A stretch of 64,000 bases of DNA from positions 6,138,001 through 6,202,000 of the forward strand of contig OZ365111.1 of assembly GCA_977030845.1 (NCBI GenBank), given 5' to 3'. The stretch's first letter is position 1, and every line of letters begins with the position of its first letter. Source of the stretch: Fimbriosthenelais zetlandica. Lineage: Eukaryota. Below are positions 50,301-62,300 of the stretch, in pieces. Position numbers: made by a program.

Positions 50301-53300
50301 GTGAAATTTGTTTAAAAAAATCTTTATACAAAAATTATTTTGTATACAGGATTTAAATTTATGTGTGAAATTTGTTTTAAAAAATCTTTATACAAAAAGT
50401 GTGAAATTTTTTTTTTCCTTCAGGTTCTTCAACCTGGTACGAGACCTTCAGTTGTGGATGAGTGACATCCAGCGCCAGATGAGCACACAGGAGAAGCCGA
50501 GAGACGTGTCCGGCGTCGAGCTGCTCATGAACAACCACCAAAGTCTGAAGGCAGAGATAGACGCCCGCGAGGAGAACTTTGCCATCTGTCTAAATCTCGG
50601 CCGCGACTTGCTTCACCGCAAGCACTACAGACACCCAGAGGTGAGTGGACAGTTTTATTGTTAAGCCAGGAACACACTAATCCGATTCTCCAAACCGTCG
50701 CCAACCGATACCCGATTTCTAATGGCATCTAAAGATTGAAATTTTGTCAGTGGTTAACGTTACCTATGTGTAAAGGACTTCAAATTACAAGCATTTGGTG
50801 TGAATAGAAATATACTTTCTGACAGCTATCGGATGGCGCCGGATAGAAAATCGGATTAGTGTGTTCCATGATTTGTGTCAACCTAAATACGAGGGCTATA
50901 TGAAGTCGAAAAAGTAACAATTATTTGAATAATGGACCTGAAAACTCCAATTTCTTTCTGGGAATGATAATTTACATACACTACTGTTCATCGGGTGGGT
51001 AAATAAAATGATATATTGATGTCTATTTTACAAGAAAAACCCATGGAAATGATACACTACTGTTCATCAGGTGGTTAAAATCATCGGTGATAGAGCCCCT
51101 TTAAGTTAACTGAACCAGGAATACTAATTGAATTATCTATTCAACTGTTTATTCCAACTATATTTCAGGTGAGAGACAAATTAATTGGACTGGGAACACA
51201 GAGAGGAGAGATGATGGAACATTGGGATGGATGCTGGGAGTACCTCCAACTTAGTAAGTATCCAATTAAGAAATAAAAGAATCCTATACACTAAAATGAT
51301 TATCATTAAATAAAATATTAACATTTAAAAAACTAGTTCAGTAGACAAAAGATCAGCAATTAGTATTAAACTGTGTTACGTTTATGTCTTGCAATTAACA
51401 CCGGAGATTGACAACAAATGGTAACTAACTGAAATCTAATGCAAACCTTTCAACATTGCAGTATTGGAGGTCTACCAATTTGCCAGAGACGCATCCGTGG
51501 CAGAGGCTTGGCTTGCAGCACATGAGCCATACTTACAAAGTAGAGATTTTGGCGTAAGTTCTCTTTTCTTGGTTTTTGAACTGTACTAAATTGAAGATCT
51601 CGGATGCATTAATGCCTAAATTTACAGTTTCAAAATACATATATATATATATAAATAATAGGATTACTTATAGTATGTCCCAAGATTAGTCCTACATTTG
51701 AAAATTGAATTTCAGGATTCACTAGATGCAGTGGAAGCACTCATCAAAAAACACGAAGCCTTTGAGAAGTCTGCTGCCACCCAAGAGGAAAGATTCGCCG
51801 CTCTTGAGCGGCTAACGACGGTAAGTCTTAAACGTGTATTCATTCAAGTTTCCCACAGTCGTGGAGAAACCTGAAAAATGGAATGGAAATATATCAAAAA
51901 GTTGTTTAAAATGGTCACGGAAAATTTGTAGAATTTATTTTTGTAAAATGTTAAATTTTTATATTTGAAATTGATTGTATAAATCTTCAAAAAATGTTCT
52001 ACTACTTTAACCAAGAATGATCTCTCTCCTTTCAGTTTGAGATAAAAGACCGAGAAAAGAGGAAAGAAGAAGAGTTTCGACGAGAACATCCAGACGCGCC
52101 TTACCCTCAAAAACAAAGTTATGTTCAGAAATATACAGAAGAGTTCATACCACCACCAGAACCAGAGTAAGTACATTGAGTATCATTTCTTAAAAAATAT
52201 ATAGCCCGTTAATCTTAACTTCCCGAGGACTTCTCCTTCTACCCATGTTCTATATTACATTCAATATGAGGGAAAATCACTGGAAACTCGAGTTGACCAC
52301 ATTAAATGACTGTTGTCATTTCAATTTTCAGAACGGAAATTACAATCAGGTAACCTTGTCATGGAAGCCCAGGTTTTTGATTGAGATTCGTTCAAATGAA
52401 TAATAATATTTCTATGAACCCATTGAATACCCCCAAGATCATCAGCGCATGATATTTTTACTTGACCTCAGCACTGCACTGGAATGCAGATAGTATTTAC
52501 CATTTCCAGCCGAGATAATATATTATTTTGATTTGAAAATCTGAGATTTACTATAATAATACAATTAGGTATTTTAATCCGATTTAAATCCTAGTTTTGC
52601 ACTTTTTGCAATGCCATCTGAGATCGACCCTTCGAATGAATTCAGCTTCCCAATTATCTTTACTTTGCGACCACCGTTCCCCAATTCTTTTAGAACCCCA
52701 AACCAGAAAATAGCCACGGTTTTCTATTTAATTTTTATATTGATCCAAGATTTTTAAATTTCACCCCATTTTGTTGATATTTGGACCCCTAAGCATGATG
52801 TTCCTCTTTATTGCCCCGACTACCAATTTTTTGGATGTTTTTTGAAAAACTTTCAATATCCCTTTCCTCATCCATCAATGTTGCTGGTGTTTTCAGACCG
52901 GAACCGGAACCGGAACCAGAACCACAGCAATCGTCACCGGATCGTGACGAGGCTGGAGGAGCCGGCGAACCCGAGTCTGTTATAAATGGAGAGAAAGAAC
53001 ACGAAGACAGTCCCCGAGGAACTGCCGCTGAAGGTAAGAGAGAAACGCGTACCCCCGCTTGGGCGTCTTTAGTTTCTATAGGTGTTGTGGTCCGTCGGCG
53101 AGGGATCCCCAAAAGGTGCTTCCCAATGAAACTGAAGCCCCTGAGATTTTTTTTTGTAACAGGGGAGCTTCTTTGTTTCTCAATCCAGCGAACTTTCTTA
53201 CTCTTAGCCAGTGTCTCTGATTCTTGAGAGAACATGCCCAGCTGGAGTGATTTCCCCTATGTTGTGTAGTCATCTCTGCCCGTGGGGCAGTGAAGCATGC

Positions 53301-59300: not shown

Positions 59301-62300
59301 CTTCATCCCAGGTGTAATGCCGGAATGGGCTTTTATATTGATGAAATGAACCGGTTATATTGCAATTGATGACCGTTTTAAACTCCCTAGTAAAATATTG
59401 TTGCCATCTCACCTGAAAGATTACACATACATGATATATTTTTGTCACCAAATTGGCAGTAGATTTGTTGATTTGTTTTGACTTACTTTTTTTAATTCAT
59501 TCCTGCCCTTTTTTGCATTTCTTACTTCCTTCGTATATATTTATATCTGTGTTACCGTTTTTTATCCATCACTTTTTCTTATACCATGCTATTTTTATGT
59601 GTTTATTCCTTAATGAATACAATGTAATAATTCCAATGAAAAAGAAACGTCATTCAAATAAGTTACCATTTTGCAAGCATTTGCCATGAAAATCAGCAAC
59701 TTGTAAAGGCCTTCGGTTCAATCTCCTTGTATGTTGTTTATTCGATTAAATTTTTTGTAAGCCGTCTTTAATTTTAATCATCTGTGTTGCTGATTTTGTT
59801 AGGCAAACGAATTTATATTCGCAAACATGCAGATGTCATATTCTATACTATTCCTGCTACAATGGACCAAAACTAATTTGCTCACTCGAGTGCTTCATTT
59901 AACCATTACATGCATAAACCCCAACACAACCTTATGAGAAAAGCTTCTGGAATAAGTGGTATCGGGCAATAAGTTAAGACTTTTTCACAAGTTGTTATCC
60001 TTTGTACTCTGATCTGAGACTAAATGAATCTAATTTGTTTTTTTAGTGCCAGGACAGGATGCGGAGGACCGATTTGAGGGAATACTTAGCCGAAAACACG
60101 AATGGGAGACCACCACAAAGAAAGCTAGTAATCGGTAAGTATCTACCTTCATTGATGATCATGATCATTATGTTCTAGCTTCAGAAGGATTAAGAATACT
60201 ATGCGTGGTTTGCAGTAATATTTTGACTTGCAGAAATCAGTTCTAGAATAACCTATAATTCAAATTACACAGATTCCATATTTCCACATGTGGAAATAGT
60301 CATGAAAAGAGTTCTTTGAAAAAAAATATATATGCTGTTCATTCTTTTTCTTAAATGAAAAGTATTAAAGTACAGTTTTGTTATGGATACTTTTGTATAA
60401 CAATGTGTATGTCATGTAATTTTGGTTTTCTTCCACAGATCGTGGGAAAAACTGTATTGCCTGTTGGAAAATGGCCAGCTTGCTTTCTACAAAGATGCTA
60501 AACACGCTAAATCAGTAAGTATCACATTAAGTTTAGCATGTTCCCCTTCAATATGCCAAAGTAAAATATCTAAGCATTAAAGGTCCCACTTTGAAATGAC
60601 CAGTGAAACGAATTTGTACCTTGCGCTGTGTAACTTTCAATTTATTCTGTCCTCATTCATACAAAACAGGGCCATTTGAATATTTTTCTTTTTGTTTTTC
60701 TCCTTCGGAATTCATGAATTCTCTTCATCTTTCAGGAACCAACTAACTACTTCCATCATGAACCACCAGTGGATATGAATGGTGCATCTTGCGCTATTGC
60801 TTCTAACTACACCAAACGCCCACACGTGTTCCGTCTGAAGCTGGCCACAGGTGGTGAATACCTCTTCCAGGGCAAAGATGAGGTTTGTACTCTACTTATA
60901 TATATATATATATATTTTTTTTTTAATTTGATTTATTTATCCTATATAGCCATTTCATGATGTTTAATCGATTGTTCTCAAAGAAATATTAAAATACTTT
61001 CACTAAGTGGGGCTCTGTGTAGCAATACTGTACCTTCTTGAAATTTGGTGCTTATAATTCATGCAATGTCCTAAGAGAAATATCAAGAGACAAAACATGT
61101 ACCGCTGTATTATATGGGCCTGTGGGACTTTCGAATCATTTAGTAAAAACACATCACATATAATTTACTGTGGTGCTAATGTTTTCTGCAGTTATCCCTT
61201 CATGGCTTCTTTATTTATTTATTTATTAATTTATCTATTTATTTATTAATTTATTTATTAATTAATTTATTCATTTATTTTTTCTTCACAGGAGGAGATG
61301 AACACATGGATCCAGCAGCTGAACGCCCAAGCAGGCGGCGAGGCGGCATCCCCAACGCGAGCACAGACACTTCCCGTAACATCAGGCGAAGGCAAGAAAG
61401 ACGACTCCAAACGACGCAGTTTCTTCACGCTTGGAAAGAAAAAGTAAACTTAGAAACACGCTTTGGTCTTCTGAGGCCTGACCCTGCCCAACCTTTGTGA
61501 CGTGTGGAGTGTAAGGATAGAGTGGCTTCCCCAACACACCTGCCCCTCGCCCTCTAGTGTAGGAGGACTGTAACTACATTACTACTGTGACCATCATCAG
61601 CACCGCGTTTACATCCTTGTGACCCTTACCGCTTGGCATGGACGAACCATGGGCCCCATAATCATACCACCAAAACTAATGATATAACTAGTTGTCTCTG
61701 CCAATTACCAGCCACAATACCAAACATCGAGGCCGTCTAGTTTTCTATATCCAGACTTGATATTCACACCCTTTACTACCAGGGTATAATGAATGATTGA
61801 CAATTACTGTTACTCGCCACGTGTCCATAGATATGCATAGCTCCTATGATACTTTTGCTAGTGATTGCTTGGAGCCTGACTTTCTCACCATTGTCACTAA
61901 TTGTATATCCGCCACTCCATAGCTGAACGGCCCGGTTTTTAACTCTTTCTATATTATATATGGTCAATGATAGAGCCAGATATGTTCCCACACATTCTCT
62001 TTGCCATCTCTTGAAGTTGGTGACTCTGGTCTCTTGACAGTTTGGGGGCATGTGTTTATTGCATGCAGGAGAAGCCATTTCCATTTAACCATGTACAGAT
62101 ACTTCTTATCAGCCCAGCACTCATTGTGTCCTATCTCAGTCCCACTCTCGGGCCACGGAATCATTTGTACGGTCCATTTCTCATGATTCAGATCTGCATG
62201 CCAGAAAGTATATAAGAGTAATTCATGACTAATTTTTTTAGCTTCGATATATATATGTGAATAACTTGGGAAGAATACATGAAGGAAATATGTCAGTTGA

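What the first reader, a model, noticed from the sequence alone, without database searches (positions are those of the whole stretch)
53034..60046. About ten-fold TGCATG enrichment in the alternatively spliced linker region
I counted 13 sense-strand TGCATG in about 7 kb: 53336, 53370, 53483, 53550, 53648, 54350, 55260, 55613, 57543, 57581, 57674, 57923 and 58867. A rough base-composition estimate gives 1-2 expected. Several sit next to the candidate exons, for example 10 nt after the 57913 donor.
Basis: partly seen in the sequence, partly recalled or inferred. Interest (0 to 1): 0.65.

Follow-up and report, generated by a model that had tools for sequence, protein, structure and literature searches.

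The report
Rbfox-type motif clusters in beta-spectrin linker
An invertebrate beta-spectrin gene carries two tight, sense-strand clusters of the splicing-factor motif TGCATG in the interval holding its optional linker exons, a statistically real but familiar kind of candidate splicing control element.

Summary
All 13 sense-strand TGCATG sites are at the stated coordinates. The excess is real but is 5-9-fold, not ten-fold. Expected counts are 1.5 (base composition), 2.1-2.7 (dinucleotide models and the gene's other introns) and 2.5 (local shuffles). None of 1000 shuffles reached 13. TGCATG ranks first of 4096 hexamers for enrichment here.

The signal is two dense clusters:
- five sites in 318 nt (53336-53653);
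- four sites in 386 nt (57543-57928), around the 84-nt exon 57830-57913.

All nine are sense-oriented, and none of the 13 lies in a repeat.

The gene is a conventional beta-spectrin, closest to spiralian ones and not human. The interval runs from the last constitutive linker exon to the first PH-domain exon. It holds three in-frame candidate cassette exons. One encodes a short RSKSPF motif found just before the PH domain in annelid, nemertean, mollusc and arthropod beta-spectrins, and included in 7 of the 14 Mytilus edulis isoform models examined.

Best reading: Rbfox-type intronic splicing regulators. Alternative splicing in this species, Rbfox binding and motif conservation remain untested.

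The parts
52036..52166 (+). Constitutive linker exon following the last spectrin repeat (phase 0 to 2).
   Evidence: Splice sites read. tblastn match to 102 of 104 homologue linkers, best E 5e-21.
52897..53033 (+). Exon A, the last constitutive linker exon. It is 137 nt, so skipping it would shift the frame. Its donor opens the interval in question.
   Evidence: Sequence. Phases worked out. Peptide matches the Haliotis linker at E 2e-9. 97 of 104 homologue linkers hit here.
53336..53653 (+). Cluster i: five sense TGCATG (53336, 53370, 53483, 53550, 53648) in 318 nt, +303 to +615 from the exon A donor. No antisense copy.
   Evidence: Five or more in 320 nt occurred in 0 of 500 shuffles. Flanks are unrelated to each other.
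54350..54355 (+). Single sense TGCATG, 357 nt upstream of candidate exon B. It overlaps an antisense copy at 54348.
54712..54918 (+). Candidate cassette exon B: 207 nt, phase 1-1, open, proline/threonine/serine-rich.
   Evidence: AG/GT sites and open frame. GC 0.52 against 0.43 in the flanks. Only weak low-complexity similarity to homologue linkers: best E 0.004 by tblastn and 0.25 by blastp. No hit among proteins of 120-2000 aa.
55260..55265 (+). Single sense TGCATG, +342 from the exon B donor.
55613..55618 (+). Single sense TGCATG, +695 from the exon B donor. It overlaps an antisense copy at 55615.
56887..56961 (+). Candidate cassette exon C: 75 nt, phase 1-1, open, basic and serine-rich. 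No TGCATG within 500 nt.
   Evidence: Splice sites. GC 0.64 against 0.45. Weak match to the Bulinus linker at E 0.012.
57543..57679 (+). Upstream part of cluster ii: three sense TGCATG (57543, 57581, 57674), 282, 244 and 151 nt before the exon D acceptor.
   Evidence: Four or more in 400 nt occurred in 1 of 500 shuffles.
57830..57913 (+). Cassette exon D: 84 nt, phase 1-1. It encodes the conserved RSKSPF polybasic segment that sits directly before the PH domain.
   Evidence: Strong polypyrimidine acceptor and a good donor. Peptide matches the linkers of Ridgeia (E 5e-5), Tubulanus (3e-3) and Lineus (3e-4 by tblastn) and the Mytilus cassette. The motif occurs in 36 of 121 homologues, 39-55 aa before the PH start. 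The Mytilus edulis block is present in 7 of 14 isoforms.
57923..57928 (+). Downstream part of cluster ii: sense TGCATG 10 nt after the exon D donor.
58867..58872 (+). Single sense TGCATG, +954 from the exon D donor and 1175 nt before the PH exon.
60047..60134 (+). First PH-domain exon. Its acceptor closes the interval, and it enters in phase 1.
   Evidence: Sequence. blastp to homologues down to E 8e-16. tblastn.
60434..61447 (+). Remaining PH-domain and C-terminal exons (about 60434-60514, 60736-60882 and 61268-61444, with the stop codon at 61445-61447). Boundaries are approximate and come from protein matches.
   Evidence: (PH_9 / PH).

Best explanation
The window holds most of a conventional beta-spectrin gene of an invertebrate, closest to spiralian beta-spectrins. 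The 7013-nt interval lies between the last constitutive linker exon and the first PH-domain exon. It carries optional in-frame cassette exons.

Its TGCATG excess is two dense, sense-only clusters of the (U)GCAUG element recognised by Rbfox/Fox-1 family splicing factors. I take these clusters to be intronic splicing-regulatory elements read on the pre-mRNA.

Cluster ii has three sites 150-280 nt upstream and one site 10 nt downstream of the conserved 84-nt 'RSKSPF' cassette. It would set tissue-specific inclusion of that cassette. By the known position rule, the downstream site favours inclusion and the upstream sites favour skipping, or support the preceding exon.

Cluster i has five sites 300-615 nt into the intron after the last constitutive exon. 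It would bias which downstream acceptor pairs with that donor, meaning a long or a short linker.

Shown here: the sites, their excess, strand bias and independence; the gene and exon anatomy; and the conservation and optional nature of the cassette in relatives. Inferred: binding by Rbfox, the direction of the effect, and alternative splicing in this species.
For: - 13 of 13 sites confirmed. 0 of 1000 shuffles reach 13. TGCATG is rank 1 of 4096 hexamers. The excess is 6.3-fold over the 35 other intronic intervals, 31 of which have no sense site.
- Cluster significance: five or more sites in 320 nt in 0 of 500 shuffles; four or more in 400 nt in 1 of 500.
- Strand: 13 sense against 5 antisense in the interval (P 0.048), or 11 against 3 without the palindromic overlaps (P 0.029). 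The two clusters are 9 sense to 0 antisense (positions).
- Specificity: GCATG not preceded by T is not enriched (5 in, 39 out, ratio 1.04). GCACG and motifs for Nova, PTB, MBNL, CELF, QKI, hnRNP A1, TIA and ELAV give ratios of 0.5-1.6, and TGCTGC has 0 copies in the interval against 11 outside.
- No site lies in an interspersed or tandem repeat, and there is no Rfam family in 51000-64000.
- Exons B, C and D are open, symmetric in phase, multiples of 3 and richer in GC than their flanks.
- Exon D is orthologous to a cassette found just before the PH domain in 36 of 121 homologues from annelids, nemerteans, molluscs, crustaceans and chelicerates.
- In Mytilus edulis (14 isoform models) and Ostrea edulis (5), all length variation apart from one 8-9-aa block lies in this linker. 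The RSKSPF block is present in 7 of 14 and 1 of 5.
- Established knowledge, from passages seen in PMC2777236 and PMC8742874: Fox-1/Rbfox proteins bind (U)GCAUG in vertebrates, flies and worms. Elements often come in multiple copies with additive effect. Downstream sites enhance and upstream sites repress inclusion. Repeats 1.5 kb away can still act.
Against: - There are no transcript data for this species, so alternative use of exons B, C and D is inferred only. The peptide of exon B found nothing among proteins of 120-2000 aa (0 of 242 candidates). Exons B and C have only weak, low-complexity similarity to relatives.
- Cluster i is not within 300 nt of any supported exon, and exon C has no site nearby.
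- Intron 30111-33373 has a similar raw density (1.53 against 1.85 per kb) with no known optional exon, although that is within chance (29 of 500 shuffles).
- The control is 35 intronic intervals of one window, not genome-wide.
- Motif conservation in orthologous introns, the presence of an Rbfox gene and its binding could not be tested.
- The bivalve isoforms are automated gene models, and I did not see their underlying transcript evidence.
Confidence: 0.58

Rival explanations
1. Chance or local base composition: the 13 sites are a random fluctuation in an AT-rich long intron.
For: The window as a whole is only mildly enriched: 53 matches on both strands against 36.7 +/- 6.6, and 1 of 100 shuffles reaches 53. 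Four of the 13 sites are dispersed at near-background density. Another intron reaches 1.53 per kb.
Against: 0 of 1000 local dinucleotide-preserving shuffles reach 13 in the interval or in any 7-kb window on either strand. TGCATG is rank 1 of 4096 hexamers, Bonferroni 0.016. Both sub-clusters are individually rare, at 0 of 500 and 1 of 500.
Confidence: 0.04
2. Copies of a repeat: the sites were multiplied by a transposable element or a tandem duplication that happens to contain TGCATG.
For: The interval does contain one interspersed repeat (55032-55229, 71% identical to 36283-36501) and four short tandem arrays.
Against: None of the 13 sites falls in that repeat or in any tandem array. The 15-nt flanks of the 13 sites are unrelated to each other.
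Confidence: 0.03
3. A DNA-level element: the clusters are transcription-factor sites of an intronic enhancer or another chromatin feature, not RNA signals.
For: Long introns often host enhancers. Cluster i is not next to a supported exon.
Against: All nine clustered sites have the same orientation, on the transcribed strand. The reverse complement is not enriched, at rank 313. Four sites frame a conserved cassette exon, one of them 10 nt from its donor. I know of no factor that would fit better than Rbfox; this is my own knowledge, not a test.
Confidence: 0.07
4. Rbfox-type sites with a different job. Cluster i may control a stop-containing ('poison' or terminal) exon or intron retention just after exon A, giving a beta-spectrin without the PH domain or a non-productive transcript. 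It would then not be tuning the in-frame cassettes.
For: A consensus-like donor at 53326|53327 has TGCATG at +10, the same offset as at exon D, with three more sites within 224 nt. Paired with the acceptor at 53269|53270 it would make a 57-nt exon carrying an in-frame stop. FOX-1 drives non-productive splicing of xol-1 in C. elegans (start of the abstract of PMC7787662, seen in the listing) and multiple (U)GCAUG elements are reported in xol-1 pre-mRNA (passage of PMC2777236).
Against: The only support is splice-site-like strings. The interval has 15 donor-like and 72 acceptor-like sites and 60 such pairs. There is no homology or transcript evidence.
Confidence: 0.12
5. The sites are RNA signals read by a factor other than Rbfox, or relics that no longer function.
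For: Binding was not tested, and the window does not show whether the organism has an Rbfox gene.
Against: The enrichment is confined to the full hexamer with the leading T. That hexamer is the high-affinity Rbfox element conserved in vertebrates, flies and worms (passages of PMC2777236 and PMC8742874).
Confidence: 0.12

Closest known systems
Rbfox/Fox-1 (U)GCAUG intronic enhancer of fibronectin exon EIIIB and of non-muscle myosin II-B exon N30
   Same: Multiple sense copies of UGCAUG in the intron next to an optional cassette exon, acting from tens of nucleotides up to about 1.5 kb away (passages of PMC2777236).
   Different: Those elements are experimentally shown and conserved among vertebrates. 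Here nothing has been tested, the host is an invertebrate beta-spectrin, and the sites lie on both sides of the cassette.
Protein 4.1R (EPB41) exon 16, regulated by Rbfox2
   Same: Another membrane-skeleton gene in which three UGCAUG copies in the adjoining intron switch a short cassette that changes cytoskeletal binding (passages of PMC3820963).
   Different: It is a different gene and protein region (the spectrin-actin binding domain of 4.1R) and is a mammalian erythroid switch. The sites there are all downstream.
Upstream (U)GCAUG repressors, such as F1-gamma exon 9 and CaV1.2 exon 9*
   Same: Several copies in the upstream flanking intron of a cassette, as with the three sites before exon D (abstract of PMC2018636 in the listing).
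   Different: Exon D also has a site 10 nt downstream, so the net direction cannot be read from position alone.
Alternatively spliced linker of bivalve beta-spectrin gene models (Mytilus, Ostrea)
   Same: Same protein position, between the proline/glutamate-rich segment and the PH domain. Several independent cassettes occur there, including the RSKSPF block.
   Different: Those are protein models only. Their introns could not be examined, so whether they carry TGCATG is unknown.

Membership tests
Rbfox/Fox-1 (U)GCAUG intronic splicing-regulatory element | Exact (U)GCAUG on the transcribed strand in introns flanking an internal exon | tested here: met
   13 sense sites in the interval. Four lie within 282 nt of exon D, one of them at +10 from its donor.
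Rbfox/Fox-1 (U)GCAUG intronic splicing-regulatory element | Multiple copies, beyond what chance gives | tested here: met
   0 of 1000 shuffles reach 13. Rank 1 of 4096 hexamers. Sub-clusters reached in 0 of 500 and 1 of 500 shuffles.
Rbfox/Fox-1 (U)GCAUG intronic splicing-regulatory element | The flanked exon is alternatively spliced in the same organism | not testable with these tools
   No transcript data for this species. Indirect support only: symmetric phases and optional orthologous cassettes in Mytilus and Ostrea models.
Rbfox/Fox-1 (U)GCAUG intronic splicing-regulatory element | Motif positions conserved in orthologous introns | not testable with these tools
Rbfox/Fox-1 (U)GCAUG intronic splicing-regulatory element | Bound by, and dependent on, an Rbfox protein of the organism | not testable with these tools
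   No Rbfox gene lies in the window, and binding and knock-down are experiments.
Conventional beta-spectrin gene | Calponin-homology domain, spectrin repeats, C-terminal PH domain and collinear match to beta-spectrins | tested here: met
   Pfam Spectrin and PH/PH_9 appear on single exons, below the curated cut-offs because the pieces are short. The window is collinear by tblastn with full-length beta-spectrins from the CH2 exon (20910) to the stop, at 62-74% identity. The exons for the first ~146 residues, including the CH1 domain, are not in the window.
Conserved RSKSPF linker cassette of protostome beta-spectrins | Short basic exon with the RSKSPF motif 39-55 aa before the PH start, optional among isoforms | tested here: met
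   Exon D matches the Ridgeia, Tubulanus, Lineus and Mytilus linkers. The motif is in 36 of 121 homologues and in 7 of 14 Mytilus edulis isoforms. Optional use in this species was not tested.

The most novel reading that the evidence does not exclude
The two UGCAUG clusters may mark an ancient Rbfox-controlled switch in protostome beta-spectrin. It would insert, probably in neurons or muscle, a conserved polybasic and aromatic 'RSKSPF' segment directly next to the PH domain, tuning membrane or lipid attachment or its control by phosphorylation. A second output from cluster i might be a stop-containing exon giving spectrin without the PH domain. If the same motif arrangement flanks the orthologous cassette in molluscs, annelids and arthropods, this would be one of the oldest conserved Rbfox target exons in a core membrane-skeleton gene.
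Probability: 0.25. Interest if true: 0.6.

Novelty: new member of a known kind. Interest (0 to 1): 0.4.

Why it matters
Rbfox motif clusters beside tissue-specific exons are textbook in vertebrates and documented in flies and worms. A new instance is therefore not surprising in kind.

Its value is specific. It points to a defined, testable regulatory module in the one beta-spectrin region that varies among isoforms, right next to the membrane-binding PH domain. It also links that module to a cassette conserved across protostome phyla, whose function I did not look up and which did not come up in my searches.

If confirmed, it would give a handle on how invertebrate neurons or muscles customise the spectrin skeleton. 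It would also add an old exon to the conserved Rbfox network.

Tried and rejected
- Search for proteins containing exon B ('longer' mode, 120-2000 aa only): 0 of 242 candidates at E <= 0.01, so there is no outside support for that exon.
- 'Longer' search with a large spectrin-repeat exon: capped at 2000 aa, so it found only two partial proteins. Full-length relatives came from a region search with one of them.
- No protein in any search was closer than 73.8% identity to the window, so the species stays undetermined and no same-species isoform could be examined.
- First regex for linker length was too strict and gave mostly blanks. It was replaced by alignments.
- The Branchiostoma isoform alignment (11 models) varies at many scattered columns, probably from two parental haplotypes of a hybrid. 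I did not analyse it further.
- Repeat origin was rejected. Known RNA families: none found.
- Other splicing-factor motifs are not enriched.
- The second apparent cluster, in intron 30111-33373, is not significant (29 of 500 shuffles).
- The search for further homology-supported exons in 53034-60046 found only B, C and D, plus single hits at noise level. In the exon C region the best hit (E 0.03) is in a different reading frame from the one the phases require, so it gives exon C no support.
- TGCATG within 100 nt downstream of donor-like sites: 6 of 15, against about 2.6 expected from the local density. I ran no test on this and it is not used as evidence.
- Literature searches linking Rbfox or UGCAUG with beta-spectrin splicing gave only the protein 4.1R case and general Rbfox papers.
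- I searched exon by exon.

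
Full report
**Observation**

A pattern search finds 53 TGCATG matches on both strands of the window. The window has no N, and its CpG observed/expected ratio is 0.57.

Inside 53034-60046 there are 13 sense and 5 antisense copies. Two of the antisense copies are only the other face of overlapping palindromic strings at 54348/54350 and 55613/55615. The remaining 56,987 nt hold 16 sense and 19 antisense copies.

**How much more than chance**

Expected sense counts for the interval:

| Null model | Expected |
|---|---|
| Base composition | 1.50 |
| Markov order 1, 2, 3, trained on the interval | 2.73, 3.58, 4.17 |
| The 35 other intronic intervals (14 sites in 47,518 nt) | 2.07 |
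| 1000 dinucleotide-preserving shuffles in 4-kb blocks | 2.51 +/- 1.57 |

The excess is about 5-9-fold against the first-order and empirical nulls, not ten-fold.

- None of the 1000 shuffles reached 13 in the interval, or in any 7013-nt window on either strand (maximum 11).
- Among all 4096 hexamers, TGCATG ranks first for sense-strand enrichment in the interval against the rest of the window (binomial 4e-6, Bonferroni 0.016). The next hexamer is at 9e-4, and the reverse complement CATGCA ranks 313th.
- 31 of the 35 other intronic intervals contain no sense copy at all.

**Shape of the signal**

The excess is not spread evenly.

- Five sites fall in 318 nt (53336-53653). Five or more in 320 nt occurred in 0 of 500 shuffles.
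- Four sites fall in 386 nt (57543-57928). Four or more in 400 nt occurred in 1 of 500 shuffles.
- The other four sites (54350, 55260, 55613, 58867) are dispersed at close to background density.

All nine clustered sites are in the sense orientation, with no antisense copy inside either cluster. Over the whole interval the strand bias is modest: 13 against 5 (P 0.048), or 11 against 3 without the overlaps (P 0.029).

The enrichment needs the leading T. GCATG preceded by A, C or G occurs 5 times inside and 39 times outside, a ratio of 1.04. GCACG and motifs for Nova, PTB, MBNL, CELF, QKI, hnRNP A1, TIA and ELAV give ratios of 0.5-1.6, and TGCTGC has no copy in the interval against 11 outside.

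No site lies in the one interspersed repeat of the interval (55032-55229, 71% identical to 36283-36501) or in any of four short tandem arrays. The flanks of the 13 sites are unrelated to one another. Rfam finds nothing in 51000-64000.

**What the locus is**

Single-exon translations hit the Pfam Spectrin and PH/PH_9 models. Full-length beta-spectrins align collinearly by tblastn from a calponin-homology exon at 20910 to the stop after 61444.

Identity to the window:
- 73.8% to an unnamed transcript-derived protein (P0008);
- 67-71% to mollusc, annelid and nemertean proteins;
- 63-65% to arthropod proteins;
- 62% to amphioxus proteins.

I therefore take the contig for an invertebrate, closest to spiralians, of undetermined species. 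I do not take it for human.

I searched exon by exon.

**Anatomy of the linker**

| Exon | Coordinates | Length | Phase | Status |
|---|---|---|---|---|
| End of last spectrin repeat | to 51822 | | | constitutive |
| Linker exon | 52036-52166 | 131 nt | 0 to 2 | constitutive |
| A | 52897-53033 | 137 nt | 2 to 1 | skipping would shift the frame |
| B | 54712-54918 | 207 nt | 1-1 | candidate cassette |
| C | 56887-56961 | 75 nt | 1-1 | candidate cassette |
| D | 57830-57913 | 84 nt | 1-1 | cassette, conserved |
| First PH exon | 60047-60134 | 88 nt | enters in phase 1 | constitutive |

- Both constitutive linker exons are matched by nearly all homologue linkers: 102 and 97 of the 104 linkers that could be extracted from the 121 proteins.
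- B, C and D each have AG/GT boundaries, are open in phase 1-1, are multiples of three, and are richer in GC than their flanks (0.52-0.64 against 0.39-0.45). Any combination can be skipped in frame.
- The closest relative, P0008, has a short linker that corresponds to exon A joined directly to the PH exon.

**Are the cassettes real and optional?**

Exon D is well supported.

- Its peptide matches the linkers of Ridgeia (E 5e-5), Tubulanus (3e-3), Lineus (3e-4 by tblastn) and Mytilus.
- A pattern built on the RSKSPF core occurs 39-55 residues before the PH start in 36 of the 121 retrieved beta-spectrins. These come from annelid, nemertean, bivalve, gastropod, crustacean and chelicerate species. 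By my count from the peptides, not from a call, exon D spliced to the PH exon would put the motif at about the same distance.
- Among the 14 Mytilus edulis isoform models examined, the only length variation is one 8-residue block and six blocks in the linker just before the PH domain. The RSKSPF block is present in 7 of 14.
- In the 5 Ostrea edulis models the variation is one 9-residue block plus linker blocks, and the RSKSPF-containing block is present in 1 of 5.

The equivalent linker is thus the main alternatively spliced region in bivalve gene models.

Exons B and C rest on weaker ground. They have only low-complexity similarity to relatives: B at E 0.004-0.25, and C at E 0.012 in the required frame. 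A search with the exon B peptide among proteins of 120-2000 residues found nothing (0 of 242 candidates).

No transcript of this species was available, so optional use here is inferred.

**Position of the motifs**

- Exon D has sites 282, 244 and 151 nt before its acceptor and 10 nt after its donor.
- Exon B has one site 357 nt upstream and sites 342 and 695 nt downstream.
- Exon C has none within 500 nt.
- Cluster i lies 303-615 nt after the donor of constitutive exon A and more than 1 kb before exon B.

**Mechanism**

The Fox-1/Rbfox family binds (U)GCAUG in vertebrates, Drosophila and C. elegans. The elements are often present in several copies with additive effect. Sites downstream of an exon promote inclusion and sites upstream repress it. 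Repeats as far as 1.5 kb away can act. These points come from passages of the review PMC2777236, passages of PMC8742874 and the abstract of PMC2018636 in a search listing.

The membrane-skeleton gene for protein 4.1R is a known case. Three UGCAUG copies in the adjoining intron let Rbfox2 activate exon 16 (passages of PMC3820963).

The sense-only, hexamer-specific, clustered pattern here fits that kind of element best. My reading is as follows.

- Cluster ii controls inclusion of the conserved RSKSPF cassette. The net direction cannot be read from position, because sites lie on both sides.
- Cluster i influences which acceptor the exon A donor uses, and so whether the linker is long or short.

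Binding, direction and tissue are inferred, not shown. I put this at 0.58.

**Rivals**

- Chance (0.04) and repeat origin (0.03) are disfavoured by the tests above.
- A DNA-level enhancer (0.07) does not explain the 9:0 orientation.
- A different Rbfox-type output is open (0.12). A consensus-like donor at 53326|53327 has TGCATG at +10, the same offset as at exon D. With an acceptor at 53269|53270 it would give a 57-nt exon carrying an in-frame stop. That could yield a PH-less or non-productive transcript. But the interval has 60 such splice-like pairs, and nothing else supports this one.
- Another RNA-binding factor, or non-functional relics (0.12), cannot be excluded without binding data.

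**Against my reading**

- The control is 35 intronic intervals of one window rather than the genome.
- Intron 30111-33373 has five sense sites (1.53 per kb) and no known optional exon. Five or more in some 2.5-kb window upstream of the interval occurred in 29 of 500 shuffles, so it is not significant.
- Cluster i is beside no supported exon.
- The bivalve isoforms are automated models.

**Novelty and literature**

Searches pairing Rbfox or UGCAUG with spectrin terms found no paper on Rbfox control of a beta-spectrin linker.

- One search found one paper holding all three terms, and it concerns protein 4.1R.
- The Drosophila Rbfox1 paper has no occurrence of 'spectrin' in its main text.
- The unc-70 paper reports two isoforms that differ in 5' exon usage (RT-PCR over exons 1-7), with different expression patterns. 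It detected no alternative splicing in the 3' cDNA clones (passages).

The library is limited to open papers. Supplementary target tables were closed and could list beta-spectrin.

This is a new candidate member of a well-known kind of element. Its added interest is that it frames a cassette conserved across protostome phyla next to the PH domain.

**What stayed unchecked**

- Conservation of the motifs in orthologous introns.
- The presence of an Rbfox gene.
- Any transcript evidence for this species.

Noticed in passing
window 30111-33373: This intron, between the exons at about 30000-30110 and 33374-33451, has five sense TGCATG (30631, 30888, 31388, 32153, 33059) and one antisense copy, or 1.53 per kb. 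It is the only other intron near the linker's density. Five or more in a 2.5-kb window occurred in 29 of 500 shuffles, so it is not significant. No optional exon is known there.
   Followed up: partly
window 53270-53335: A consensus-like donor at 53326|53327 is followed by TGCATG at +10, the same offset as at the exon D donor. With the acceptor at 53269|53270 it would make a 57-nt exon with an in-frame stop, a possible poison or terminal exon. Only splice-like strings support it.
   Followed up: partly
window 54220-54270: A 51-nt stretch is open in phase 1-1, has a strong donor (8 of 9 consensus matches) and has TGCATG 80 nt downstream. It could be a further microexon. The only homology is a single noise-level hit (E 0.87).
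   Followed up: partly
window 57830-57913 and homologues P0007, P0018, P0036, P0082, P0092, P0095, P0100: After RSKSPF, the conserved cassette continues with a run of basic and aromatic residues in most phyla. That suggests a polybasic membrane- or calmodulin-binding segment, with serine phosphorylation sites, next to the PH domain. This is inference from composition only.
   Followed up: no
window 55032-55229 and 36283-36501: An interspersed repeat is shared between two introns of the gene (71% identity over 221 nt). Open-frame translations near 49900-50160 look similar too. It is probably a short mobile element, and it carries no TGCATG.
   Followed up: partly
window 62060 and 62195: Two sense TGCATG lie 600-750 nt after the stop codon, in what is probably the 3' untranslated region. 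The first polyadenylation-like signal after the stop is ATTAAA at 63046.
   Followed up: no
window 1-20909: No beta-spectrin exon matches upstream of 20910, and the exons for the first ~146 residues (with the CH1 domain) are missing. This stretch is probably a long 5' intron. Its TGCATG strand ratio is reversed (5 sense, 10 antisense), and it contains proline-rich open frames and simple repeats.
   Followed up: no
window 45011-45200: Just upstream of the exon at 45218, the translation reads as a repetitive proline-, histidine-, isoleucine- and serine-rich string, which suggests simple-sequence DNA. I did not examine the DNA.
   Followed up: no
alignments A1 cols 1529-1536 and A2 cols 1194-1202: Bivalve beta-spectrin models each have one further optional 8-9-residue microexon inside the repeat region, at different positions in Mytilus and Ostrea. 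I did not look for counterparts in the window.
   Followed up: no
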